DNA of 64,000 nucleotides from Minisyncoccia bacterium (GTDB taxonomy: Bacteria; Patescibacteriota; Minisyncoccia; Phycocordibacterales; UBA9973). Below, piece by piece: positions 2,461-47,223 of this stretch; position 1 is the first letter of the stretch, and each line of letters begins with the position of its first letter. Below the pieces are notes generated by a model, which searched no databases, was not told the DNA's origin, and saw nothing but the letters and a program-made list of their open reading frames with translations. The stretch spans positions 108,558 through 172,557 of the forward strand of contig JBAQFO010000009.1 of the NCBI GenBank assembly GCA_049287305.1, in the 5' to 3' direction. Position numbers and translations under genes: made by a program.

Positions 2461-4545
<2,085 letters not shown>

Positions 4546-4591
4546 TTATAGCAAAAACCGGCCTTGATTACTAGTGATTTTAGTGTTTAAA

Positions 4592-4632
4592 AATAGGGCA
4601 TAAAAAGAAAGAGGAGGCCGTCGCGTAATGCG
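4592..4632 (-). terminator. Rho-independent terminator (minus strand) after the small-ORF pair in the GC island
   Basis: Reverse strand forms a 13-bp stem (one mismatch, one GU) with a taa loop, followed by a U-rich tract (ctctttcttttta). Confidence 0.5.
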
Positions 4633-4737
4633 ACAGCCTCCAGTCCCCTGATTCTATCCGACGCTATACAGCCTCGGTTGAGTCGTCGAGGAGACGACTC
4701 ATTTACCTCCCACTCGTCTGACAGGAGGAAACACAAT

Positions 4738-4916
4738 CTACAACACGCCCGAGGTTCCGTTCTTTCCAGGCGTAGGGTCGTACACCTCTGAATCCCCGGG
4801 ATTCCCGAGCCAGATCGACTCTTCCTTCTTCGTAGCCGGCTGGCCAGAAGTCATTCCTGGATAACGGCGATCAAGCGGGGAGGGAGATTCTTCGGAGTTC
4901 TCTCTGTCGGTCTTCA
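4738..4916 (-). CDS. Hypothetical small protein (59 aa, low-complexity/disordered, P/G/S/E-rich)
   Basis: MKTDRENSEESPSPLDRRYPGMTSGQPATKKEESIWLGNPGDSEVYDPTPGKNGTSGVL, preceded by a strong SD (AAGGAGAAGG-8nt-ATG). It lies in the high-GC island and is the internal-ATG version of the listed 124-aa ORF. Confidence 0.4.
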
Positions 4917-4942
4917 TGATTTTTACCTTCTCCTTGTCCTGT

Positions 4943-5449
4943 TTATGTATTGATGGGAACTGCGGCCACCCAGCGAAATCGCTGGAACAAATAATTCGCG
5001 CTGATGAGTCTCGATTCGCGGCAGTCGTCTGCGATCCAGGTCTCTGAGACCATCCTGACATCGTTCGTCCCCATTCGAACAATACAAGGCACGAGCGACA
5101 CCAATGACACATAGTGCCGTCCCAGACGTTTCGGCAAGTCGTGCTGAGTCTGACCTACCGCAAACACTATGCGGGGGTGAGCAGGCTTCAGTCCCTTGTC
5201 TTTTAGAATGTCTAGCGCTACCTCCTTTTTCCACGTCTTGGTCGTCGCAGTCTTCCGAAAACCTAGAAGATGGACATCAATCTTTTCCACTCCCTTGCGA
5301 GAAGATGAATACTGCTCTCCGGTCTGGAAAATGAAAAGTTCGGCATCGCTGTCTTCTCCTGAGAGAAAAATGGCGTCCGGCCAATCCAAGCTCCAGTTAA
5401 CTTCCACCCCCTGAAGTGTAAACTCTTGTACTGGTTTGTGCCTGTGCAA
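4943..5449 (-). CDS. Hypothetical protein (168 aa, TTG start), no family recognised
   Basis: ORF with GGGAGG 9 nt upstream of TTG. The protein (…IDVHLLGFRKTATTKTWKK…RIVFAVGQTQHDLPKRL…) is non-repetitive. The region is ~58% GC against ~40% for the flanks, and its stop lies 26 nt before the downstream small ORF. Confidence 0.4.
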   Translation of the reverse strand: MHRHKPVQEFTLQGVEVNWSLDWPDAIFLSGEDSDAELFIFQTGEQYSSSRKGVEKIDVHLLGFRKTATTKTWKKEVALDILKDKGLKPAHPRIVFAVGQTQHDLPKRLGRHYVSLVSLVPCIVRMGTNDVRMVSETWIADDCRESRLISANYLFQRFRWVAAVPINT

Positions 5450-5703
5450 GTCCCCTTACCTCCCTTTTATTTATTTGTCAAAAAACCAAATCACGTCCCC
5501 TAAAGAAAAACACCGCCTTTAGAGGGCTGGTGTTTGGGTTGTAAGTTTTGTTTTTGAGAGATTTTTACAGCGCAAATATCAGCCTTCTAAATGAGGTGTC
5601 CTTAATGACGAGGAGGGCTGTGTTTTTATTTGTTGCTGTATATTTGTTCACTTTTTTACTATAACACATTTTGAAATAAGAGAAACCTGATCTGTGGAAA
5701 AGA

Positions 5704-7554
5704 TTATCTGACTTGCCATCCGTTATTTTCGGTAATTTTTTTGGATATATTGTCCATAATTTGGTTTATTTCCGCATCGGTGAGAGTTCGATCATAAGAC
5801 TGGAAAACTATTCGGAAAGCATAGGAAATTTTGCCGTCTTTTTTAAACTCATCAAAAAGCTCGGGTCCTTTGATTACTACATCCCCCGCGTTTTCTTTTA
5901 TAACCTTTAGCACCTCTTCGCTTTTTACATTTTCAGGAACCCACACCGCCACGTCCCGAGCGATAAACGGAAACAGGGGCCAATTTTTAAAATTAATGTT
6001 AATCAACTTAAACGGAAGACCAGTTGTAACACTAAATCCGTCTATGGTTGTTGGGAAATTTCCAGTATTTGGTGCGCCTTCACTAAGATTGGAAAAACTG
6101 AAATCTTTACAAAATTCTTCAAGCTTAACTTCTTTTACTTCTTTTTTATCTCCGTAAGCTATTCGCATTTCCTCTCCGTTTTTATTGAATATGGTTCCAA
6201 TCTCAAAAACTTTAATGATGTCCCCTCCCAGGAGCGGAGCATTGGTTTGATTTAATCTTATGCTCTCTTTTAACCCATCGGTTAAATTGGTTCGCAAAAA
6301 GTTTTTATCTGACGCCGAAGCAAGGACGGACACTTCTCCGTTATTTTTAAAAGACGAGGTCATTACTTCGCTGTATCCTTCCGCCAACAGCTTATTTCTC
6401 GCCCAGACAATCTTGGCATATAGTTCATTTTGCTTCGGCTTAAAATCAACTTTTGGGATATTATTCTTTAGCCTGTCAAATCCCAAAATCCTTCCTATCT
6501 CCTCCGCGGCATCTTCTTCTATGTTAAGGTCCAGGCGCATTGTCGGCACTTTTATCTCAAACACTCCCTTCTCTTCTTTGTAGTCTATGTTGTATCTTTT
6601 CAAAATTTCTTTTATCTCCTCCGGAGAAACTTCTATGCCTAAAATTTTAGAAATTTTTTCGGTTCTGAAGGAAAGTTTTTGTATCTCTTGTTTTTTAGGA
6701 TATACATCCACAATATCTTCAAAAACCGCTTCTGGGCACATTTCAAATATGAGGGCTGACAGCTCGCGCATGCCGTAAGCAGCAAGTTCGGGAGAAAGGT
6801 CATTTTCAAAACGTTTCTTGGCGTCCGTGAAAATACTTAGTGCTTGGGCTGTTTTACGGACTGAGGTTGGGTCAAAGTTAGCGCACTCCAATATGATTTC
6901 CGTCGTGTCATTTGTCAGCTCCGCGTATTTGCCTCCTTTTATTCCGGCGATATCAAGCGGGTTGCCGTAATCATCCGCGATAATCATCATAGTATCATTT
7001 AATTCTTTCTCACCGCCGCCAAGCAAAGTAATTTTTTCTCCGTTCTCGGCATTTCTAACTTTTAGTTTTAAATCTTTTACTTTGCTTAAGTCAAAAACGT
7101 GGGCCGGCTGCCCGCAGTTGAACATCACTATATTCGTCGCATCTACTATGTTGTTTATTGAACGCTGCCCTATAGCTTCCAGGTGTTTTACTACCCACTC
7201 CGGGGATGGGCCGATTTTTACATTCCTTACTACTCGCCCCATGTATCGCCGGCATTTGGAAGTTTCTACTGTTTTAATTAATTTTGTCGGCTTGGATTCC
7301 GGAATTTTATATTTTGCCGTCGGGTCAACAAGTTTTATATTTAAAAGCGAAGCAATTTCGCGAGCAATACCCAGATGAGAAAGAAGGTCGTGAGCCCGGT
7401 TCGGCAATATTTTTATATCCAAAATAGTATCTCCATCGGAATTTTTTTCCAGGGACTCCACTTCGGCCAGATGGTAGGTAAAAATATCAGCCAGTTTCTC
7501 CGCTTCCGGCGCCTCCGGTATATACCATTTAAGCCAGTTATAAGAAATTTTCAT
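5704..7554 (-). CDS. pheT: Phenylalanyl-tRNA synthetase beta subunit (short form)
   Basis: MKISYNWLKWYIPEAPEAEKLADIFTYHLAEVESLE at the N-terminus, plus the B3/4 and B5 regions and a C-terminal FDX-ACB-like end. It sits immediately downstream of pheS. Confidence 0.9.
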   Translation of the reverse strand: MKISYNWLKWYIPEAPEAEKLADIFTYHLAEVESLEKNSDGDTILDIKILPNRAHDLLSHLGIAREIASLLNIKLVDPTAKYKIPESKPTKLIKTVETSKCRRYMGRVVRNVKIGPSPEWVVKHLEAIGQRSINNIVDATNIVMFNCGQPAHVFDLSKVKDLKLKVRNAENGEKITLLGGGEKELNDTMMIIADDYGNPLDIAGIKGGKYAELTNDTTEIILECANFDPTSVRKTAQALSIFTDAKKRFENDLSPELAAYGMRELSALIFEMCPEAVFEDIVDVYPKKQEIQKLSFRTEKISKILGIEVSPEEIKEILKRYNIDYKEEKGVFEIKVPTMRLDLNIEEDAAEEIGRILGFDRLKNNIPKVDFKPKQNELYAKIVWARNKLLAEGYSEVMTSSFKNNGEVSVLASASDKNFLRTNLTDGLKESIRLNQTNAPLLGGDIIKVFEIGTIFNKNGEEMRIAYGDKKEVKEVKLEEFCKDFSFSNLSEGAPNTGNFPTTIDGFSVTTGLPFKLININFKNWPLFPFIARDVAVWVPENVKSEEVLKVIKENAGDVVIKGPELFDEFKKDGKISYAFRIVFQSYDRTLTDAEINQIMDNISKKITENNGWQVR

Positions 7555-7557
7555 AAA

Positions 7558-8268
7558 CTAAAATTGATTGAGCCGTAAATCTCCCTGATAAAAAAGTCTC
7601 ACGTCAGGAACTCCCCATTTAATCATTGCAATACGGTCAAGCCCTCCGCCGAAAGCAAAGCCTTGGTATTTTTTAGGGTCAAGACCGATATTCCGCAAAA
7701 CATTAGGGTGCAACATCCCAGCGCCCATCATTTCCAACCATTTGCCTTTAAACTTGGCGAAGACTTCAAGTGATGGTTCCGTAAAAGGAAAGAAGCTGGG
7801 ACGGAATTCAACCTCTACGTCGTCTCCAAGCATTTTTTTATAAAAATGAGTGAGCACCCCCTTAAGGTCGGACAAGGATATGCTCTCCCCGACCATACAT
7901 CCGTCTATTTGGTAAAATTGCATTTCGTGAGTTATATCAGTTGCTTCGTTCCTGAAAACTTTCCCGACGGAAATGAATGCTGCAGGAAGTCGGCCGTCTT
8001 TCCCTGCTTGCTCCAGTGCCCGCGCCGTGACTGTGGTGGTATGTGTGCGTAAAACCTTGTTCGGTATGTCTTTAATCCAAAAAGTATCTTGCATATCGAG
8101 AGCCGGATGGTCTTTGGGGAAATTCAGAACATAGAAGTTATACCAATCGCTTTCAAGCTCGGGACCGGTAGCTATTTCAAACCCAAGGTCCGAAAACGCC
8201 TGATAAGCCTCCTGAGCCAAGAGGGAAAGCGGGTGTATCGTGCCAGACTTATTTTCTTCTTTGTTCAT
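7558..8268 (-). CDS. pheS: Phenylalanyl-tRNA synthetase alpha subunit (N-terminally truncated form, 236 aa)
   Basis: Class II core motifs are present: FPKDHPALDMQDTFWI, FRNEATDITHEMQFYQIDG, FPFTEPS, and GAGMLHPNVLRNIGLD...GFAFGGGLDRIAM. Confidence 0.85.
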   Translation of the reverse strand: MNKEENKSGTIHPLSLLAQEAYQAFSDLGFEIATGPELESDWYNFYVLNFPKDHPALDMQDTFWIKDIPNKVLRTHTTTVTARALEQAGKDGRLPAAFISVGKVFRNEATDITHEMQFYQIDGCMVGESISLSDLKGVLTHFYKKMLGDDVEVEFRPSFFPFTEPSLEVFAKFKGKWLEMMGAGMLHPNVLRNIGLDPKKYQGFAFGGGLDRIAMIKWGVPDVRLFYQGDLRLNQF

Positions 8269-8273
8269 ATACT

Positions 8274-9290
8274 TTATTCTATCAAATTCGCTTCTACTGG
8301 GCTAATTTTCCGCCCATGGCGGGACAAGACGCATCCGCCGACACAGAACGCCTTGCCTTCGTTTTCGACGAGACATTTTTCACAGTTTATAAAATGCCTG
8401 TGGCAGACAGGGTTTGCGCAGTTCACATAATTTTCCGACAAGGCTCCGCAAGTATCGCATTTGCCTACCACTTCCTGCCCGCCCGAATTTTCATTCATTC
8501 GGGTAAACTTTTCATCATCGGTATAGAATCCTGCCCGGCTTATCTGAGACGGGCCCATAGTCACTCGTCCGTCAAAGACATATAATTTTCCTTTGAAATC
8601 TTCATTCGGGTATTTTTCCATGTAACTTACTATCCCGCCGTCTAGTTGATACACATCGGTAAAGCCTTGAGTTATCAAAAACCCCGATGCCTTTTCACAG
8701 CGCACTCCTCCGGTGCAAACAGTCAGAACCGTTTTATTCTTCAAATGAGCTATCTGTTCTACCACTTTCGGCAGGTCGCGAAAATTCTCGATTGGAGGCA
8801 ATATTGAATTTTCAAAATGGCCAACCTTATGCTCATAAACGTTGCGCATGTCCACGATGTAAAATTCCCTGCCCGAATGACCGGAGTCACCTGGTCGGGC
8901 GGGTTTTTTATCTTTTATCCACGCATGAAGTTCTTCCGGCTTCAAATGTTCTCCGGTTACAATATTTGGGTCTATGTCGCAAGCCCCCAGATGGAGAGAC
9001 ACTATTTCTTTGCGAACTTTGACAGAAAGTTTGGGAAACGCCCGCCCTGTCCCCTTACTCAATTTAAAGTGAATATTTAAGAATCGGGAATCTTTCTCAA
9101 GCTCCTTTATATATTTTTGAATGTTTTCGGTGGTTCCTTCAAAAGTCGTGTTTATTCCCTCGGCAGCAATAATACATCTGCCTTTTAAGCCCAACCTAAT
9201 AGACAACTCATCCTGCCACAATCTGACCTCTTCCGGATTTTCTATGCGGACGTATTTATAGAATAGAATAATGGTGTAATCTGCTGTCAT
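8274..9290 (-). CDS. trhO: Rhodanese-domain tRNA U34 hydroxylase TrhO/YceA family (UPF0176) with C-terminal Cys-rich zinc-binding tail
   Basis: N-terminal UPF0176 domain (ILFYKYVRIENPEE...RCIIAAEGINTT), rhodanese active-site loop CTGGVRCEKAS, and a C-terminal CxxC...CxxC cluster. Confidence 0.7.
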   Translation of the reverse strand: MTADYTIILFYKYVRIENPEEVRLWQDELSIRLGLKGRCIIAAEGINTTFEGTTENIQKYIKELEKDSRFLNIHFKLSKGTGRAFPKLSVKVRKEIVSLHLGACDIDPNIVTGEHLKPEELHAWIKDKKPARPGDSGHSGREFYIVDMRNVYEHKVGHFENSILPPIENFRDLPKVVEQIAHLKNKTVLTVCTGGVRCEKASGFLITQGFTDVYQLDGGIVSYMEKYPNEDFKGKLYVFDGRVTMGPSQISRAGFYTDDEKFTRMNENSGGQEVVGKCDTCGALSENYVNCANPVCHRHFINCEKCLVENEGKAFCVGGCVLSRHGRKISPVEANLIE

Positions 9291-9467
9291 GAAAGTATCT
9301 TAACGACAAAAAGACAAAACTACAAGATTCTGTTAATATATGGACATGCATCATAAAGAAGAGGACGAGACAAAAAAAATATATTTGCTTTTGATAAGAA
9401 CAGCCATCATTTTCGCCATTATAGGTTTTTATCTTGCCTGGCTAGACAACGGCCCTGGGTTTTTGCC

Positions 9468-12452
9468 TTAAGGCTTGTATACGGCCGACATTTTGCAATA
9501 TTCGCAGACAGTTCCCTTTCCGTAAGAATTGTAATTGCAAGGTCTATCTACCCATTCGCCAGACTTTAACAAGCTTTCATAATCTCGGATATCTTTCACC
9601 AAGAGGTCTATTTGTTCTTCCCCCACATGAGTTGCGAATAGAGCGTTTTTATCGCCCTTTTTAGCTTCCAGAAATAATAGTCTGGACTCGGAAACGGTCT
9701 TGCCTTTTTCGGCTCCCTTTATTAAATAAGAGTACATCGCAAGTTGTCTCATTAAAGAAGACAACCTCCCCTCTTCATCTGTTTTTTCAATAGCGTTTTT
9801 GGTTTTAACACTTCCGGTCTTAAAATCCGTAATAACTATTTCTCCGTCAGGCATTCGCTCGGTTAAATCCAGCTTGCCATACATTAGTAGTTCCGGAAAG
9901 TCTGGGGAACGAAACTGAACGGATCTCTCAGATGTATAATCTTTTGCCAGGTCTTTGTAGTAGACTTCAATCCATCCCGCGACGGCACTCTCCGCGTCCT
10001 TGGCAAGCTTTTTAAGCTCAGTTTCACTACTCACCCCTTCCTCTACCAGTGCATTTGATATTTTTTCTTTTATAAAAGATTCTTTAGGCAGAGAACCGTT
10101 TTTCAAGATAAATTCTATAGCACCATGCACCGCTGAACCAAGCGCAAGCGACGCTCCCTTTATCTCGGGCAATTTTAAAAAATTTCGGAAATACCACTTC
10201 CACGGACATTCAAAGAAGTTATTCAAGAGAGACACCGACACCCTGCTCTCGGTATAATTATCCTTCACAAAATCTTTTATCTCTTCGAGCATGTTTTCTT
10301 CGCCCTTTTCAGAAAGAGCGGTATATATTTCCGGTCCGTTAGACAAAATTTCTTTTTCGGTATCTTCTTTTGATTTTCTCATAAAATGCGTTTCCGGCAA
10401 TTCCCGTATAATCTGCGCCAGTTCCATTTCTCCTCCTTTGTAATTTTCTTCCGCATAAGATATGTTACAAAATTCTTTAGCCCTGGTTATTGCTACATAT
10501 AGTTCTCTTTTAGTGGATTCTATGTCGCGGTCCGCCATATGCGTTTTTATTTTTTCAGGCAAGGTAAAACCATTCCGTTTCTCGGACATTACCACTTCCT
10601 CGTTCATGTGCGCAATCCATACAGCTTTATATTCCAATCCCTTTGATTTATGCAGAGTCATAACCTGTATCCCCGACCCTCCGCTAAAAGTCGCCACTCC
10701 GATATGGCTACCGTAATTTTCTAATCTTTTAAGATATTTCAGAAAGTCGGATAGTTTTTTATTTTTATTCTTCTCTTCAAATAGCAGTGCCAAATTTATA
10801 AAGCTTCTGACCACTTCCACGTTCCGCACCAACTCTTCGTGGCTTTTGGATTGTTTTATGAGAAATTCATTGCCCACGAAACTCACCGCAAAAGAAAGAT
10901 TCTCTGAAGAAAGCATATCTACCGATTCTTTTAATTTATTACCCCATTTGGCTACCGGATTTTCTCCCGCGAAAAGTCCGGCATCACTTCCATAATTTAT
11001 CAAATCTTCCGGGTTTATTTTATCGGGTTTTACGGATTTCAAAAACTTGTGCGCCAAAAAAGCTGGGACCCCGGAATATTTATCCAGTAAAGACGCGGAA
11101 ATAGATATGGAATCAAATGGATTCGCGACAATATTCAAAACATCAAGCAAACTTTGAGTTGACGATACGTCAAACAAAGAAAGGTTTTTCCCGGCTGACA
11201 CGGGCACCCCCATGTTGTGGAGAATTTCAAGCGCACTTCTAACCTGATAATTTTTCGGCACAAGAAGCGCGCATTCTTCCGGCTTCACCCCTTCTGCAAT
11301 TTTGTCTTTAAAATATAGCCCTGCTCCCAGTATCTCATCCCGAGGATAAGCATATTCCGAAAGATATATTTTATCTTCCCCTGTTGTATTGCTCAGTAAT
11401 TTTTCTTTGGTAATGGAACTTTGGAGCAAGTCGTCAGCCAAGGACAAAATTTTCTCCGTGGAACGATAATTTTCTATAAGAGTTATCAGCTTTGCCTTAC
11501 CGAAAATATGGGAAAATTCTTCAAAATAAGAAAGCGAGGCTCCTGAAAATCCGTATATGAGCTGGCGGTCATCGCCCACCACAAAAATGTTTGGTAATTC
11601 TGTTTCTTTCCAAACGGCCTTTAGAAAATTATTCTGAACATTGCTTGAATCTTGATGTTCGTCTACTAAAACATATTGATAAGCTTCATACACATCAGCA
11701 CGCACATCTTCAAATTCCTCAGCCAGTTTTACTGAATATTCCAAAATATCGTCATAGTCCATGAATCCTTCTTCTAACTTTTTAGCTTCGTATCTTCGGT
11801 AAAATTCCACAACTTCCCGCGTTCTCTCTAAAGATTCTATTCTGGTTATAATTTCTTTTTTTAATTGCCCCTTTGTGTCCCCGCGCGAAGAAATACTTTC
11901 GGGGGCGTTTGTTAGCTCGGCAATATCATTTTCCACGTGAACCAAAAGCTCTTCCGGGGTAAGTCTTTCCCTCTTTAACAGAGATATCAGGTGCTTCAAA
12001 TCATTGAAATACATTTCGGGGTTGGCCCGTGGACGAAGATGTCGCCATTCGTTATTCTGTAAAATCTCGTCAATTAAAAATACTCCTTCCGCGTCGGACA
12101 ACAGTCGTGGCATTGTCTTAAATCCTAAGTTTTCATAATGCTTCTCAACAAGCTCTATGCCGAAGCTGTGAAATGTGGAAATATGAACCTTGTCGGCAAG
12201 CGCTCCTATATATTCGCGCAGGCGATTCTTCATGGCTTTTACCCCTGAGTTCGTGAACGTCAAGCATAAAATTTCATCGGCATTATGGTCGGGCTGCTTT
12301 AAAATATTGGCAATGCGGAGAGCCAGTATTTGAGTCTTCCCGGTTCCCGGACCCGCAACAACCATAACTGGTCCGTCAATGGTATCCACAGCCTCCTTTT
12401 GAGCTTTGTTTAATTTTTTATATTCTTCGTTAAAGGTCTTTTCGGAAACCAT
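9468..12452 (-). CDS. UvrD/PcrA-family superfamily-1 DNA helicase fused to a C-terminal PD-(D/E)xK (RecB/AddA-like) nuclease domain
   Basis: Walker A (VVAGPGTGKTQIL), the helicase motifs, and a C-terminus with ...GKLDLTERMPDGEIVITDFKTG... and a terminal Cys cluster (CNYNSYGKGTVCEYC), as in AddA/AddB nuclease domains. Confidence 0.8.
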   Translation of the reverse strand: MVSEKTFNEEYKKLNKAQKEAVDTIDGPVMVVAGPGTGKTQILALRIANILKQPDHNADEILCLTFTNSGVKAMKNRLREYIGALADKVHISTFHSFGIELVEKHYENLGFKTMPRLLSDAEGVFLIDEILQNNEWRHLRPRANPEMYFNDLKHLISLLKRERLTPEELLVHVENDIAELTNAPESISSRGDTKGQLKKEIITRIESLERTREVVEFYRRYEAKKLEEGFMDYDDILEYSVKLAEEFEDVRADVYEAYQYVLVDEHQDSSNVQNNFLKAVWKETELPNIFVVGDDRQLIYGFSGASLSYFEEFSHIFGKAKLITLIENYRSTEKILSLADDLLQSSITKEKLLSNTTGEDKIYLSEYAYPRDEILGAGLYFKDKIAEGVKPEECALLVPKNYQVRSALEILHNMGVPVSAGKNLSLFDVSSTQSLLDVLNIVANPFDSISISASLLDKYSGVPAFLAHKFLKSVKPDKINPEDLINYGSDAGLFAGENPVAKWGNKLKESVDMLSSENLSFAVSFVGNEFLIKQSKSHEELVRNVEVVRSFINLALLFEEKNKNKKLSDFLKYLKRLENYGSHIGVATFSGGSGIQVMTLHKSKGLEYKAVWIAHMNEEVVMSEKRNGFTLPEKIKTHMADRDIESTKRELYVAITRAKEFCNISYAEENYKGGEMELAQIIRELPETHFMRKSKEDTEKEILSNGPEIYTALSEKGEENMLEEIKDFVKDNYTESRVSVSLLNNFFECPWKWYFRNFLKLPEIKGASLALGSAVHGAIEFILKNGSLPKESFIKEKISNALVEEGVSSETELKKLAKDAESAVAGWIEVYYKDLAKDYTSERSVQFRSPDFPELLMYGKLDLTERMPDGEIVITDFKTGSVKTKNAIEKTDEEGRLSSLMRQLAMYSYLIKGAEKGKTVSESRLLFLEAKKGDKNALFATHVGEEQIDLLVKDIRDYESLLKSGEWVDRPCNYNSYGKGTVCEYCKMSAVYKP

Positions 12453-14150: not shown

Positions 14151-14236
14151 GCGGAGGGTAGGAGATTCGAACTCCTGGTGGATTGCTCCACACACGCTTT
14201 CCAAGCGTGCGCACTAGACCGCTATGCGAACCCTCC
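14151..14236 (-). tRNA. tRNA-Ser (anticodon GGA), type II with long variable arm
   Basis: Hand-folded: acceptor GGAGGGT/ACCCTCC, anticodon stem CACGC/GCGTG with loop TTGGAAA (anticodon GGA), variable arm, T-arm AGGAG-TTCGAAT-CTCCT, discriminator G. No encoded CCA. Confidence 0.85.
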
Positions 14237-20140: not shown

Positions 20141-20614
20141 TTAATTGCACAAATATGTGGCCGGGTTAATCGCTGAGCCGACGACGGCATTCACCACCTT
20201 AGCTGCTCCTCGATTGTCTACACACCATGATGTATTGGGAGTTTGGGTCAAACCCACTGCAATCGCCCAGTTGTCTTTGGAATTATAGCAAGAGTTGCCA
20301 TTTCCCCTTTTGGTGGCTTCTGTCACAGAATCTGCAACAACCTTATTTGCAGAAAACATACTGGTTCCTGAGATATTATAGGAGGGACAAACCCCGGTCA
20401 CATTGCTGCCTCCGGCAGGCAAATACGAACTTCCATTATCCAAATAGAAAATTTCCGACTGATTAACAATTGTCCGGAGGTTGGATTTTACCGCCGCGTC
20501 ATTACCTTTTCCTTTTGCGGCACTAAGCGACACTAAGACAACCGACGCCAATATCCCAATGATAGCAACAACCACCAAGAGTTCAATCAGCGTAAAACCT
20601 TTCTTTAAATTCAT
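20141..20614 (-). CDS. pilA: Type IV major pilin (PilA-like), paralog 1
   Basis: MNLKKGFTLIELLVVVAIIGILASVVL is a canonical class III leader plus N-terminal helix with Glu5. The C-terminus carries a Cys pair. Confidence 0.85.
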   Translation of the reverse strand: MNLKKGFTLIELLVVVAIIGILASVVLVSLSAAKGKGNDAAVKSNLRTIVNQSEIFYLDNGSSYLPAGGSNVTGVCPSYNISGTSMFSANKVVADSVTEATKRGNGNSCYNSKDNWAIAVGLTQTPNTSWCVDNRGAAKVVNAVVGSAINPATYLCN

Positions 20615-20732: not shown

Positions 20733-21149
20733 CTAACAAGCTGTAGTGGCTGTGTTTCCTGTTCTTTCTTTGGAAGCGCCTGTTGAATCCACGCACCAAG
20801 ATTGAGCTGGAACTGTCTTCAAAGGAACAGCTGCTGCCCAAGCGGAAGTACTGTCAAGGCAAAAAGTTGCTCCACCGCTAGCTTGACCCGCTGCAGCAAG
20901 CGCTGCAAGTATATTGGTGTTCGCACATACTCCATCATAACCAACGCTGTCTGTAGGAGTTTCTACTGTATCATAAATCAATTCTGCTTGTGCGCGCATA
21001 TTGGCCAAGTTTGCTTTTACTGCAGCGTCAGCGCCTTTTGCACGCGCTGAGTTCAATGACGCAAGCACCACCGACGCCAATATCCCAATGATAGCAACAA
21101 CCACCAAGAGTTCAATCAGCGTAAAACCTTTCTTTAAATTCATTTTCAT
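20733..21149 (-). CDS. pilA: Type IV major pilin (PilA-like), paralog 2
   Basis: MKMNLKKGFTLIELLVVVAIIGILASVVLAS. The first ~26 codons are nucleotide-identical to paralog 1 and the C-terminal domain diverges. Confidence 0.85.
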   Translation of the reverse strand: MKMNLKKGFTLIELLVVVAIIGILASVVLASLNSARAKGADAAVKANLANMRAQAELIYDTVETPTDSVGYDGVCANTNILAALAAAGQASGGATFCLDSTSAWAAAVPLKTVPAQSWCVDSTGASKERTGNTATTAC

Positions 21150-46820: not shown

Positions 46821-46824
46821 ATTG

Positions 46825-47223
46825 TGGAGATGGGGGAAATCGAATCCCCGTGCAGAAGGTTTTTGTAAGGACGTCTACATGTTTAGCGCGCTTTTTGTTT
46901 TAAATTAAAAAATTATGAAACGCGCCAAATATTTTTTAATCGATTCTCTTTGTTTCGGAAGAAAGCCGAGACATTCTTTTTCCTATCCCGATTATGTTAT
47001 GCCCGCTCTTGTATATCGGAAGTCCACAAGAGAGACACGAGCTTACGCTAAAGCGGAAACTCGAGCAAAAGCGAAATCATTCATACCGAAGTATGGAGAG
47101 ACTGCGACTCTTACCTTGGAAGCTAATTTTGCAATTAAGCTATTGAACGACTTTTTACGAGATTACGTTCATGCTCGACATGCACCGATGACAAAAGGCC
47201 AACTGTCTATGCCTTGCATCCCC
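46825..47223 (-). ncRNA. ssrA: tmRNA (ssrA), about 399 nt, directly downstream of smpB
   Basis: Reverse strand starts GGGGAUGCAAGG... and ends ...GGGGAUUCGAUUUCCCCCAUCUCCA: a tRNA-like acceptor (GGGGAUG pairs with CAUCUCC, with G3-U as in E. coli), T-arm GGGGA-UUCGAUU-UCCCC and discriminator A. It has an internal GGUGCAUG and an exact CUCGUAAAAAG block as in E. coli tmRNA, and a tag-like reading frame ending ...AFARVSALA-UAA (stop at 47045-47043). Confidence 0.8.

What the first reader, a model, noticed from the sequence alone, without database searches (positions are those of the whole stretch)
4640..5460. An ~0.8 kb high-GC island (~58% vs ~40% genome) between gyrB and pheT with two SD-led ORFs of unknown function
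Base composition changes abruptly (60-mers at 4741-4860 are 57-62% GC; typical flanking 60-mers are about 37-42%). The island contains a 168-aa ORF (TTG start with GGGAGG 9 nt upstream) and a 59-aa P/G/S/E-rich ORF (AAGGAGAAGG-8nt-ATG) separated by 26 nt. It is closed by a hairpin terminator (4592-4632) and preceded by a TTGACA element at about 5480. Neither protein matches a family I recognise. GC excess in an AT-rich genome is also how structured RNAs stand out, and all six frames are open here, so coding status itself needs to be tested. I looked for RNase P, tmRNA and group II D5 motifs and did not find them. Whether protein-coding or RNA, it looks like a laterally acquired or otherwise unusual insertion in a conserved housekeeping neighbourhood.
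Basis: seen in the sequence. Interest (0 to 1): 0.6.

Follow-up and report, generated by a model that had tools for sequence, protein, structure and literature searches.

The report
Attenuator-led lectin-fold gene cassette
The GC-rich stretch between pheT and gyrB is an accessory gene cassette in a tiny symbiotic-type bacterium: a real gene for a lectin-like binding protein plus an unverified mini-gene, sitting behind a previously undescribed family of leader-peptide "amino-acid starvation switches".

Summary
Window 4640-5460 is 52.3% GC, not about 58%, against 41.9% for the window. It is still the richest 821-bp stretch in the 64 kb.

The body of the island is protein-coding, not a structured RNA. 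ORF1 (168 aa, 4943-5449, minus strand) has dN/dS of about 0.10 against a 70%-identical relative. With 46 remote homologues it models at pLDDT 95 as a C-type-lectin-like fold. Its unannotated Patescibacteria family includes a proven diversity-generating retroelement (DGR) target. Here there is no RT, Avd or template repeat in 64 kb, and the region equivalent to the variable repeat is the best-conserved part. I read ORF1 as a fixed, DGR-less member. ORF2 (59 aa) is an unverified ORFan.

The main surprise lies just upstream, at 5502-5666. It holds an extended -10 box, a leaderless 28-codon leader ORF, and mutually exclusive antiterminator and terminator hairpins, both supported by covariation. 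I found about 80 copies in related genomes and metagenomes. Where the downstream gene is recognisable, the leader codons match it: FFF before pheA-type genes, LLL before leuA, PVPP before proBCA, and K/T before asd.

pheT-gyrB is a variable insertion hot spot across 57 related species. The regulation itself is inferred, not shown.

The parts
5658..5666 (-). Extended -10 promoter, TGTTATAGT. It lies 6 nt upstream of the leader start codon, so the transcript would be leaderless.
   Evidence: A TGnTAnnnT box sits at the same offset (57-76 nt before the hairpin) in most of 65 copies. The same box-plus-start arrangement precedes thrS, pheS, gyrB and at least 7 other genes of the window. No transcript data are available.
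5565..5651 (-). Leader ORF of 28 codons: (GTG)M-NKYTATNKNTALLVIKDTSFRRLIFAL-stop. The candidate sensor codons are A-L-L-V-I. The stop codon lies inside the 5' arm of the antiterminator.
   Evidence: 55 of 66 copies are open from the start next to the -10 box to one of three stops (TAA 40, TGA 10, TAG 5). All three stops lie in the antiterminator 5' arm. Most of the other 11 are artefacts of my start picking. The middle codons track the downstream pathway in other copies.
5519..5590 (-). Long imperfect hairpin, read as the antiterminator. The outer stem is TTAGAAGGCTG/CAGCCCTCTAA and the inner stems are TTTG/CAAA and TGTAA/TTACA.
   Evidence: In the 11-bp outer stem, 9 pairs show changes on both sides and 93% of cells are paired, against 32-51% when the partner is slid. 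RNAalifold gives the same structure. Folding energy is -15.3 kcal/mol. The covariance model R1 scores it at 95.7 bits.
5502..5535 (-). Intrinsic terminator, AAACACCAGCC...GGCGGTGTTT followed by TTTTCTTT. Its 5' arm reuses the 3' arm of the antiterminator, so the two structures exclude each other.
   Evidence: In the 10-bp stem, 8 pairs show changes on both sides and 86% of cells are paired, against 34-53% when slid. Folding energy is -12.0 kcal/mol.
5447..5464 (-). Shine-Dalgarno GGGAGG, a 9-nt spacer and the TTG start of ORF1.
   Evidence: The SD and the TTG are both conserved in the relative L001. The N-terminal 14 residues are conserved and form the first beta-strand of the model. This favours the 168-aa start over the 154-aa start in the NCBI annotation.
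4943..5449 (-). ORF1, 168 aa. It is a C-type-lectin-like fold protein of an unannotated Patescibacteria family that includes DGR variable proteins.
4738..4917 (-). ORF2, 59 aa, rich in P/G/S/E, with SD AAGGAGAAGG at 4926-4935. Its coding status is unproven.
   Evidence: The only database hit is an identical copy. L001 has a 61-aa ORF at the same place but with an unrelated sequence. Codon usage in frame (-4.10) is better than in the other two frames (-4.73, -4.40). A 28-nt tail encoding KNGT(S/Q)GVL-stop is shared with an unrelated ORF in L003.
4602..4641 (-). Intrinsic terminator that closes the cassette: a 12-bp GC-rich stem followed by TCTTTCTTTT.
   Evidence: Found by the terminator scan. 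It is conserved, with base changes, in L001. It is followed at 4545-4553 by gyrB's own extended -10 box, TGCTATAAT.

Best explanation
The island is a small accessory transcription unit (about 4602-5666, minus strand). It sits in a variable insertion hot spot between pheT and gyrB of a Nomurabacteria-like Patescibacterium (CPR).

**Proposed mechanism**
1. Transcription starts at an extended -10 promoter and gives a leaderless RNA.
2. The first 28 codons of that RNA are a leader peptide.
3. If the ribosome runs to the leader's stop codon, it covers the 5' arm of a long hairpin. The 3' arm is then free to form an intrinsic terminator, and ORF1 is not transcribed.
4. If the ribosome stalls at the sensor codons (here A-L-L-V-I) because charged tRNA is scarce, the long hairpin forms. 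It blocks the terminator, and RNA polymerase reads into ORF1 and ORF2.

**What the cassette encodes**
- ORF1 is a genuine protein with a C-type-lectin-like, ligand-binding fold.
- It belongs to a small CPR family, some of whose members are hypermutated by diversity-generating retroelements.
- This copy belongs to a sub-lineage whose C-terminal binding region is fixed rather than diversified.
- ORF2 may be a small disordered protein, or may not be a gene at all.

**Origin:** the GC excess marks the cargo as compositionally foreign to the host.

**Shown:** ORF1 is coding; the fold; family membership; the alternative RNA structures, with covariation; the open leader frames; the synteny hot spot.

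**Inferred:** the transcription start; attenuation by tRNA charging; control of ORF1 by the attenuator; the ligand; lateral origin.
For: **ORF1 is a coding gene**
- dN/dS is 0.10 and third-position changes are in excess.

**Fold and family**
- The model has pLDDT 94.9.
- There are 45 relatives.
- A relative in L085 lies next to bAvd and an RT. It has a 116-nt VR/TR pair in which all 10 mismatches fall at TR adenines.
- Another relative also lies next to an RT and Avd.
- Published work says that DGR targets in CPR are small, lack recognisable domains and carry C-Lec variable regions (PMC8144416).

**This copy is fixed, not diversified**
- There is no RT, Avd or TR in the window.
- Residues 123-168 are 89% identical to the orthologue, against 66% for residues 1-122. 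In the wider family the C-terminus is the most variable region.

**Attenuator**
- The 95-nt element is found in 24 related species and on 41 metagenome contigs.
- Both stems covary, and they share a strand.
- The promoter box and the start codon are conserved.
- 55 of 66 leaders are open and end inside the antiterminator arm.
- Leaderless gene starts are common in this genome.
- Leader codons match the downstream genes, confirmed by Pfam:
  - FFF before CM_2+PDT and before PDT
  - LLL before LeuA
  - SPVPP before ProB or ProC, at five loci
  - KK..TT.T before Asd
- No promoter is predicted between the terminator and ORF1.

**Hot spot and foreignness**
- The spacer ranges from 22 to 5216 bp in 57 species, with unrelated cargo that is often GC-richer than the host.
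- ORF1 and ORF2 are 3-5 SD above the host in GC and GC3.
Against: - There are no transcript or ribosome data. The start site, the leaderless GUG initiation and the read-through are all inferred.
- The window's leader has no clean homopolymeric codon run, and its cargo is not a biosynthetic gene. What the switch would sense, and why, is unclear here.
- Many copies precede ORFan mini-proteins. The match between codons and pathway rests on only about 10 loci and 4-5 independent cases.
- The inner stems and loops of the hairpin are almost invariant without covariation. That hints at a further, unexplained constraint, such as a bound factor.
- Only 2 of 9 family members examined have an RT next door. 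One of those two has no detectable TR.
- The cassette also exists in a relative with saturated synonymous divergence (dS about 1.8) and still-elevated GC. 'Recent transfer' is therefore not established, and no mobility genes or att sites were seen.
Confidence: 0.6

Rival explanations
1. The conserved upstream element is an independent small gene, and not a switch for ORF1. It could encode a small hydrophobic peptide (type-I-toxin-like or membrane peptide). It could also be a terminated small RNA that acts in trans. On this reading ORF1 and ORF2 are expressed from their own unrecognised promoter.
For: - The peptide has a hydrophobic core and a conserved C-terminus, RRLIFAL.
- Every copy ends in its own terminator.
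- Most copies precede unrelated ORFans rather than biosynthetic genes.
- Attenuator-derived RNAs with trans functions are known (PMC6614838).
- TTGACA lies between the terminator and ORF1.
Against: - 15 of 66 copies read the same conserved nucleotides in other frames and end at TGA or TAG. The conserved C-terminal peptide is therefore a by-product of the RNA sequence.
- The variable middle codons track the downstream pathway: Phe, Leu, Pro, Lys/Thr.
- The terminator and antiterminator share a strand, and both covary.
- TTGACA has no -10 partner.
Confidence: 0.2
2. ORF1 is an active DGR variable protein. Its retroelement (RT, Avd, TR) lies elsewhere in the genome, outside the 64-kb window.
For: - ORF1 belongs to a family with a proven DGR target, and a second member lies next to an RT.
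- It has the C-Lec fold.
- DGRs are enriched in CPR (PMC8144416).
Against: - There is no RT, Avd or TR in 64 kb.
- The VR-equivalent region is 89% identical to an orthologue whose synonymous sites are saturated. It is the best-conserved part of the protein.
- The sub-lineage has lost the family's C-terminal WFAF(V)RE motif.
Confidence: 0.1
3. The GC-rich island, or at least its ORF2 part (4640-4940), is a structured non-coding RNA.
For: - GC is highest there, at 57-62%.
- The fold z-score is -2.8 in the window and -2.9 in L001.
- ORF2 has no homologues.
Against: - No Rfam family matches, even at E<=10.
- The window and L001 share no alignable sequence or structure there apart from the terminator.
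- The z-scores include the strong terminator and local hairpins.
- ORF1 is certainly coding.
- In-frame codon usage of ORF2 is better than in the other frames.
Confidence: 0.04
4. The cassette is old, vertically inherited DNA, not foreign DNA. Attenuators at these sites once controlled amino-acid biosynthesis operons. Genome reduction removed those operons, and the present small ORFs are remnants or later fill-ins. On this reading the GC excess reflects protein constraints.
For: - Some relatives still carry asd, chorismate mutase, pheA, an aminotransferase or pro genes behind the same attenuators at the same sites.
- The cassette is shared with a relative at a dS of about 1.8.
- No mobility genes were found.
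Against: - ORF1 is under purifying selection and belongs to a family scattered at unrelated loci in other Parcubacteria.
- It is absent from the 57 species with the same synteny.
- GC3, which is largely free of protein constraint, is 3.5 to more than 5 SD above the host.
- The ORF2 region has no similarity to any biosynthetic gene in the related loci.
Confidence: 0.15

Closest known systems
Ribosome-mediated (leader-peptide) transcription attenuators of amino-acid operons: trpL, pheL, hisL, leuL, thrL and ilvL in Proteobacteria, and leader peptides in Actinobacteria (PMC3082878, PMC1262725)
   Same: - A short upstream ORF whose codon runs name the amino acid made by the downstream genes.
- Overlapping antiterminator and terminator hairpins, and a U-rich tail.
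- An upstream segment (AAACACAGCCCTC) that resembles the 3' arm, as in the classic four-segment 1:2 / 2:3 / 3:4 layout.
   Different: - The leader has no Shine-Dalgarno sequence; its start codon follows the -10 box directly.
- One conserved scaffold (promoter, MNKN... start, hairpin, terminator) is reused at many loci, and only the middle codons are exchanged.
- All three reading frames stop inside the antiterminator arm.
- Most copies, including this one, precede ORFan or accessory genes rather than biosynthetic operons.
- The hosts are Patescibacteria. I found no report of attenuation in that group in the held library.
Leaderless polycysteine short ORFs that act as cysteine-responsive attenuators in mycobacteria (bioRxiv 10.1101/834739)
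   Same: - A leaderless short ORF is the first cistron of the transcript.
- Its codon content senses amino-acid supply and sets expression of the downstream genes.
- AUG or GUG sits at the 5' end. Several copies here also carry Cys-containing leaders (..IICPS....CCS..).
   Different: - The copies here have an explicit intrinsic terminator and antiterminator pair supported by covariation.
- They form a family with many different sensor codons.
- The phylum is different.
- Nothing here has been tested experimentally.
DGR variable proteins with a C-type-lectin fold (Mtd, TvpA, and CPR clade-2 targets; PMC8144416)
   Same: - C-Lec-like fold.
- Small size, with no signal peptide and no recognisable domain, as reported for CPR targets.
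- One homologue has a textbook VR/TR pair with adenine-specific changes next to Avd and an RT.
   Different: - This copy has no RT, Avd or TR within 64 kb.
- Its VR-equivalent region is conserved rather than hypervariable.
- Sequence profiles do not match FGE-sulfatase, DUF1566 or any other Pfam C-Lec family.
Genomic islets at conserved intergenic hot spots
   Same: - Flanking housekeeping genes are conserved while the contents vary between species.
- The cargo has atypical GC and codon usage.
   Different: - There is no integrase, transposase, tRNA target or flanking direct repeats.
- The recurring boundary feature is a regulatory RNA module, not an att site.

Membership tests
Leader-peptide transcription attenuator | A short translatable ORF lies directly upstream of the regulated genes. 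| tested here: met
   The window has a 28-codon ORF at 5565-5651. In 55 of 66 copies the frame is open from the start next to the -10 box to a stop in the hairpin arm. Translation itself has not been shown.
Leader-peptide transcription attenuator | Mutually exclusive antiterminator and terminator structures share a strand. | tested here: met
   The outer stem shows changes on both sides in 9 of 11 pairs, and the terminator stem in 8 of 10. The two share CAAACACCAGCC.
Leader-peptide transcription attenuator | Regulatory codons correspond to the amino acid made by the downstream genes. | tested here: inconclusive
   This is met in other copies: FFF before CM_2/PDT, LLL before LeuA, SPVPP before ProB/ProC, K/T before Asd. 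In the window the leader reads ..TALLVIK.. and the cargo is a lectin-fold ORFan, so no pathway is available to compare.
Leader-peptide transcription attenuator | Read-through increases when the cognate charged tRNA is limiting. | not testable with these tools
   This needs reporter assays, term-seq or Ribo-seq.
DGR variable (target) protein | A C-type-lectin-type fold carries the variable region at the C-terminus. | tested here: met
DGR variable (target) protein | A VR in the gene is matched by a TR that differs at adenines. | tested here: not met
   No repeat of ORF1 occurs in the 64-kb window. The feature is met in the homologue in L085. The rest of the genome could not be searched.
DGR variable (target) protein | A reverse transcriptase (with or without Avd) lies in the locus. 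| tested here: not met
   tblastn with the L085 RT and Avd found nothing in the window. Two of 9 relatives examined have them next door.
DGR variable (target) protein | The VR is hypervariable between close relatives. | tested here: not met
   Residues 123-168 are 89% identical to P0002, against 66% for the scaffold.
Known structured RNA (Rfam 15) | A covariance-model match at or near the gathering score. | tested here: not met
   Only a tmRNA and tRNAs elsewhere in the window reach gathering score. In 4500-5750 the best matches are chance hairpin hits far below gathering score.
Laterally acquired genomic islet | Atypical composition, and absence from close relatives that share the synteny. 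| tested here: met
   GC and GC3 are 3-5 SD above the host. ORF1 is absent from 57 syntenic species.
Laterally acquired genomic islet | Mobility genes or att repeats lie at the borders. | tested here: not met
   No integrase or transposase ORFs are present, and no flanking direct repeats.
Anti-phage defence or toxin-antitoxin pair | A match to known defence or TA protein models. | tested here: not met
   PADLOC, PHROGs, Pfam and NCBIfam gave no hits for ORF1 or ORF2.

The most novel reading that the evidence does not exclude
Patescibacteria of the Nomurabacteria type carry a modular family of leaderless leader-peptide attenuators: one conserved scaffold with exchangeable sensor codons.

These act as amino-acid-supply switches for two kinds of gene. 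One is the few biosynthetic genes these reduced genomes retain. The other is a fast-turning-over pool of accessory cargo at fixed intergenic hot spots: Cys-rich mini-proteins, acidic peptides, and DGR-type lectin-fold binders such as ORF1.

For an organism that depends on a host for amino acids, this would be a starvation-triggered programme of host interaction or scavenging. The attenuator and its cargo may move as a cassette.
Probability: 0.3. Interest if true: 0.8.

Novelty: new variant of a known kind. Interest (0 to 1): 0.62.

Why it matters
**A possible sensing route in CPR bacteria.** CPR/Patescibacteria have tiny genomes and few known regulators, and they depend on hosts for amino acids. 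How they sense supply is essentially unknown. A widespread attenuator family that is easy to recognise would give a direct, testable read-out of which amino acids they monitor. It would also show which unknown genes they switch on when supply fails.

**A handle on an unannotated protein family.** The work attaches a fold and an evolutionary context to a family with no annotation. The fold is C-Lec and the context is DGR targets. It also shows that such binders can persist without their retroelement.

**Practical points for annotation**
- The 28-codon leader and the attenuator RNA are missing from current annotation.
- They are also missing from Rfam.
- ORF1's start codon is mis-called in the NCBI record (154 aa instead of 168 aa).

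Tried and rejected
**Family and structure searches that gave nothing**
- Pfam, NCBIfam, PHROGs and PADLOC on ORF1 and ORF2 gave no hits. Pfam and PHROGs on all 46 family members gave nothing relevant.
- PDB sequence searches with the single protein and with the profile gave only noise.
- A two-sequence AlphaFold model was useless, at pLDDT 38. The 46-sequence model replaced it.
- Foldseek against the PDB and against viral models was not significant. The afdb50 library was unavailable.

**Searches for a DGR**
- A 138-nt direct repeat at 20480/21009 looked like a VR/TR pair. It is the shared N-terminus of two pilin paralogues.
- A sensitive search for a TR next to the RT-adjacent relative in L216 was negative.
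- Three relatives on long contigs have no repeats within 5 kb on either side.

**Readings of the upstream element that I dropped**
- I first read it as a riboswitch-like ON switch.
- I then considered an integron attC-like or MITE-like recombination site, a bidirectional terminator, and a small-RNA gene.
- I dropped these once the conserved promoter box, the in-frame leader ORF and the link between codons and pathway appeared.
- Seven pattern hits in viral contigs were chance matches; none scored with the model.

**Other dead ends**
- TTGACA as the ORF1 promoter: it has no -10 partner.
- ORF2 homologues: none. The second contig, L219, is identical DNA, so it offered no SNPs for a coding test.
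- Six-frame comparison of the ORF2 region with all fetched loci found only a marginal 28-nt tail match in L003.
- My automated count of U-runs after the terminators was unreliable, because the folds ran into downstream hairpins. I rely on the alignment and covariation instead.
Full report
**1. Where the window comes from and what lies around the finding**

The window is essentially identical to contig JBAQNI010000012.1 of a Minisyncoccia (Patescibacteria/CPR) metagenome-assembled genome, GCA_049303715.1. The finding lies on the minus strand between pheS-pheT (7558-8268 and 5704-7554) and gyrB (2461-4536).

**2. Checking the observation**

- TTG start at 5447-5449, with GGGAGG 9 nt upstream.
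- AAGGAGAAGG, then 8 nt, then the ATG of the 59-aa ORF.
- Terminator at 4602-4641.
- TTGACA at 5476-5481.

The composition claim is real but inflated.
- Window 4640-5460 is 52.3% GC, against 41.9% for the window. It is not about 58%.
- It is the highest of all 821-bp windows in the 64 kb.
- ORF1 has 50.9% GC and 57.4% GC3. ORF2 has 56.7% and 65%.
- These values are 3.2-3.5 SD and more than 5 SD above 36 long host ORFs, whose means are 42.5% GC and 42.1% GC3.
- Both ORFs have unusually poor host-type codon usage, but each scores better in its own frame than out of frame.

**3. Coding or RNA?**

Rfam finds nothing in the island at gathering score, and nothing meaningful at E<=10.

A search of 5.8 billion protein clusters found two proteins related to ORF1.
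- One is the NCBI call for the same gene. It is 154 aa because it starts at an internal codon.
- The other, P0002, is 70% identical. It lies on a 1-kb contig, L001.

Aligning the two DNAs codon by codon gives 32, 23 and 84 differences at codon positions 1, 2 and 3. dN is 0.19, dS is about 1.8, and dN/dS is about 0.10. ORF1 is therefore a real gene under purifying selection.

The Shine-Dalgarno sequence, the TTG start and the first 14 residues are conserved. They form the first strand of the model. The 168-aa reading is therefore the right one.

Downstream of ORF1 the two loci do not align, apart from the terminator. L001 has a 61-aa ORF in the place of ORF2, but its sequence is unrelated.
- ORF2 has no homologue other than an identical copy. 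The contig that carries that copy is 100% identical DNA, so no substitution test is possible.
- Fold z-scores of -2.8 and -2.9 for this stretch include the terminator, and no conserved structure backs them up.
- ORF2 remains unverified. I found no support for a structured RNA there.

**4. What ORF1 is**

A full HMMER scan of 1.84 billion representative proteins with the two-sequence profile found 45 remote relatives of 150-230 aa. None of them matches any relevant Pfam, PHROG or PDB sequence family.

With these relatives as the alignment, AlphaFold2 gives a confident model with pLDDT 94.9 and pTM 0.90.

- Foldseek found nothing significant. The fold assignment is therefore moderate on structure alone.

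Genomic context strengthens it.
- The relative P0052 (locus L085) lies next to bAvd and a reverse transcriptase.
- Its last 116 nt are repeated 469 nt downstream at 91% identity.
- All ten mismatches fall where the downstream copy has adenine. This is the signature of a diversity-generating retroelement.
- A second relative also lies next to an RT and Avd. I could not find its template repeat.
- Seven other relatives are solitary genes between housekeeping genes of Parcubacteria.
- This fits the published picture that DGR targets in CPR are small, lack recognisable domains and carry C-Lec variable regions (PMC8144416).

In the window there is no RT, no Avd and no repeat of ORF1.

The region equivalent to the variable repeat (residues 123-168) is 89% identical between ORF1 and P0002, against 66% for the rest of the protein. 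Across the wider family this region is the most variable. I conclude that ORF1 is a fixed, DGR-less member of a family of DGR-type binding proteins. A remote DGR elsewhere in the genome cannot be excluded.

**5. The neighbourhood is an insertion hot spot**

Using pheT as a probe, I fetched 80 related species genomes.
- In 57 of them pheT is followed by gyrB on the same strand.
- The spacer is at most 252 bp in 28 species, and 369-5216 bp in 29 species.
- The longer spacers hold unrelated ORFs that are often GC-richer than their host.
- None encodes a relative of ORF1, by tblastn or by the family profile.

**6. The unexpected part: a conserved element upstream of ORF1**

A sensitive DNA comparison showed that about 95 nt just upstream of ORF1 (window 5499-5593) is 75-90% identical in more than 20 of these species. 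That is more conserved than the pheT protein itself. The element sometimes occurs twice per spacer.

Twenty-seven copies align into two structures.
- The first is a long hairpin. Its 11-bp outer stem has 9 pairs with changes on both sides.
- The second is a downstream terminator stem of 10 bp, with 8 such pairs, followed by a U-rich tract.
- The terminator's 5' arm is the 3' arm of the long hairpin. The two structures therefore exclude each other.

A covariance model (R1) found more copies.
- It found 32 copies in the genome loci. Some lie at a second site, between the uvrD-like helicase gene and the rhodanese gene.
- It confirmed 46 copies on metagenome contigs that a pattern scan had recovered.
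- It confirmed none of the viral contig hits.

Rfam has no such family. I found no paper on leader-peptide attenuation in these bacteria in the held library.

**7. It is a leader-peptide attenuator**

About 60-75 nt before the hairpin, most copies have an extended -10 box (TGnTATAAT). A GTG or ATG follows it after 5-9 nt.

From that start codon a frame of 17-32 codons runs into the hairpin.
- It ends at TAA in 40 copies, at TGA in 10 and at TAG in 5. All three stops are embedded in the 5' arm.
- Most of the remaining 11 copies are cases where my script picked the ATG in AATGTGA instead of the GTG.

The same promoter-then-start arrangement precedes thrS, pheS, gyrB and at least seven other genes in the window. 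Leaderless messages are therefore normal for this organism.

The ends of the peptides are conserved: MNKN... at the start and ...RRLIFAL at the end. The C-terminal conservation reflects the RNA sequence, because copies in other frames keep the same nucleotides.

The middle of the peptide varies, and it matches the downstream gene wherever that gene is recognisable.

| Leader middle | Downstream gene(s) | Loci |
|---|---|---|
| NVFFFS | chorismate mutase + prephenate dehydratase | 1 |
| NVFFFS | prephenate dehydratase | 1 |
| AISLLLSL | 2-isopropylmalate synthase | 1 |
| SPVPP | proB-proC-proA or proC | 5 |
| VVKKVTTKT | aspartate-semialdehyde dehydrogenase | 1 |

This is the logic of the classical trp, phe, leu and thr attenuators (PMC3082878, PMC1262725). 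The start is leaderless, as in the mycobacterial polycysteine short ORFs (10.1101/834739).

Most copies, however, precede small ORFan proteins. These include Cys-rich mini-proteins and acidic or proline-rich peptides.

**8. The window's copy**

The parts lie as follows.

| Part | Coordinates | Note |
|---|---|---|
| Extended -10 box | 5658-5666 | TGTTATAGT |
| Leader ORF | 5565-5651 | (GTG)MNKYTATNKNTALLVIKDTSFRRLIFAL* |
| Antiterminator hairpin | 5519-5590 | -15.3 kcal/mol |
| Terminator | 5502-5535 | -12.0 kcal/mol |

- The A-L-L-V-I codons end 14 nt before the hairpin begins. That geometry would let a stalled ribosome leave the hairpin free.
- A segment inside the leader, AAACACAGCCCTC, is nearly a repeat of the 3' arm. 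This gives the classic four-segment layout.
- No promoter is predicted between the terminator and ORF1.
- The most economical reading is that ORF1, and ORF2 if it is real, are transcribed by read-through and switched on when branched-chain aminoacyl-tRNAs run low. This step is inference. Nothing here measures transcription.

**9. Origin of the GC excess**

- Family members occur in GC-richer Parcubacteria, such as GWA2_50_10.
- The cargo in many relatives' spacers is also GC-richer than the host.
- GC3 is the most deviant measure.

These points favour a foreign origin for the cargo. Against a recent transfer, the cassette is shared with a relative at saturated synonymous divergence, and it carries no mobility genes. 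The rival view is that these sites once held attenuator-controlled biosynthetic operons that were lost during genome reduction. That view explains the attenuators well, but it does not explain ORF1.

**10. Verdict**

The finding is a real compositional island and a real gene. It is not a structured RNA.
- Taken alone, ORF1 is a new member of a known kind: a C-Lec binding protein of the type targeted by DGRs in CPR.
- The attenuator in front of it is a new variant of a known mechanism. I could find no description of it in Rfam or in the held literature. It is the more interesting result.
- Overall confidence in the composite explanation is about 0.6.
- The weakest links are the lack of expression data and the unclear meaning of a starvation switch in front of a lectin-fold ORFan.

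Noticed in passing
window 4537-5703; loci L003-L082: The pheT-gyrB spacer is a hot spot of variable content. It is 22-252 bp in 28 related species and 369-5216 bp in 29 others, with unrelated ORFs. L003 carries a 5.2-kb block of about ten small Zn-ribbon-like ORFs.
   Followed up: partly
window 957, 4536, 8268, 13388, 41195, 44220, 46468, 49521, 52767, 56608 (gene starts): Many genes, including thrS, gyrB and pheS, have an extended -10 box (TGnTAnnnT) 5-9 nt before the ATG and no Shine-Dalgarno sequence. Leaderless mRNAs appear to be common in this genome.
   Followed up: partly
L003 2368-2450, L023 2256-2342, L007 1060-1147, L035 2710-2802, L038 3168-3258: A divergent sub-type of the attenuator has leaders of the form ...SPVPP...WVVGFCA*. 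It sits between the uvrD-like helicase gene and proBCA or proC. The window has neither these pro genes nor an attenuator at the equivalent site (9290-9468).
   Followed up: partly
L014, L133, L139, L150, L112; L117, L126, L135; L134, L118 (downstream of attenuator copies): Families of mini-proteins recur behind attenuators. One group shares '..LPCGCKR..', another shares '..FTCxxCG..SAQxC..', and a third consists of acidic, proline-rich peptides ending GYG(Y/H)GV*. None has a Pfam match.
   Followed up: partly
window 4738-4800 and L003 11248-11313: ORF2 and an unrelated 151-aa ORF in the nearest relative's spacer end with the same tail, KNGT(S/Q)GVL-stop. The shared stretch is about 28 nt with 22 of 27 bases identical. 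This may be chance or a short shared module.
   Followed up: partly
L131 about 1892-2150 and L001 618-803: The 61-aa ORF that takes the place of ORF2 in L001 begins MMHYPYDPQDPSDEAQQYFENRRL... It resembles an 85-aa ORF behind another attenuator copy in L131, which begins MIYYPFDPNDPSEEATKYFEARRL... Some of these mini-ORFs therefore form real families.
   Followed up: no
window 20141-20614 and 20733-21149 (minus strand): Two adjacent type IV pilin-like paralogues share a 138-nt N-terminal repeat that encodes MNLKKGFTLIELLVVVAIIGILASVVL. They lie within a pilus and secretion gene cluster at about 18-26 kb.
   Followed up: yes
window 5519-5590 and alignment A7: The inner stems and internal loops of the antiterminator (AUAUUUGCGCUGUAA / UUACAACCCAAACAC) are almost invariant across species, with no covariation. 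That is more than base-pairing alone requires. An extra constraint, such as a bound factor or three-way pairing, is unexplained.
   Followed up: no
L216 906-3512: A family member lies next to bAvd and an RT, but no template repeat matching its 3' end occurs within 2.5 kb on either strand.
   Followed up: partly
window 3101-3300: A 200-nt stretch inside gyrB reaches 60% GC, as high as the island at that scale. It lies in a conserved coding region.
   Followed up: no
window 46822-47223: A tmRNA gene (110.8 bits) lies on the minus strand. tRNA genes lie at 14152, 33298, 33455 and 44412.
   Followed up: no
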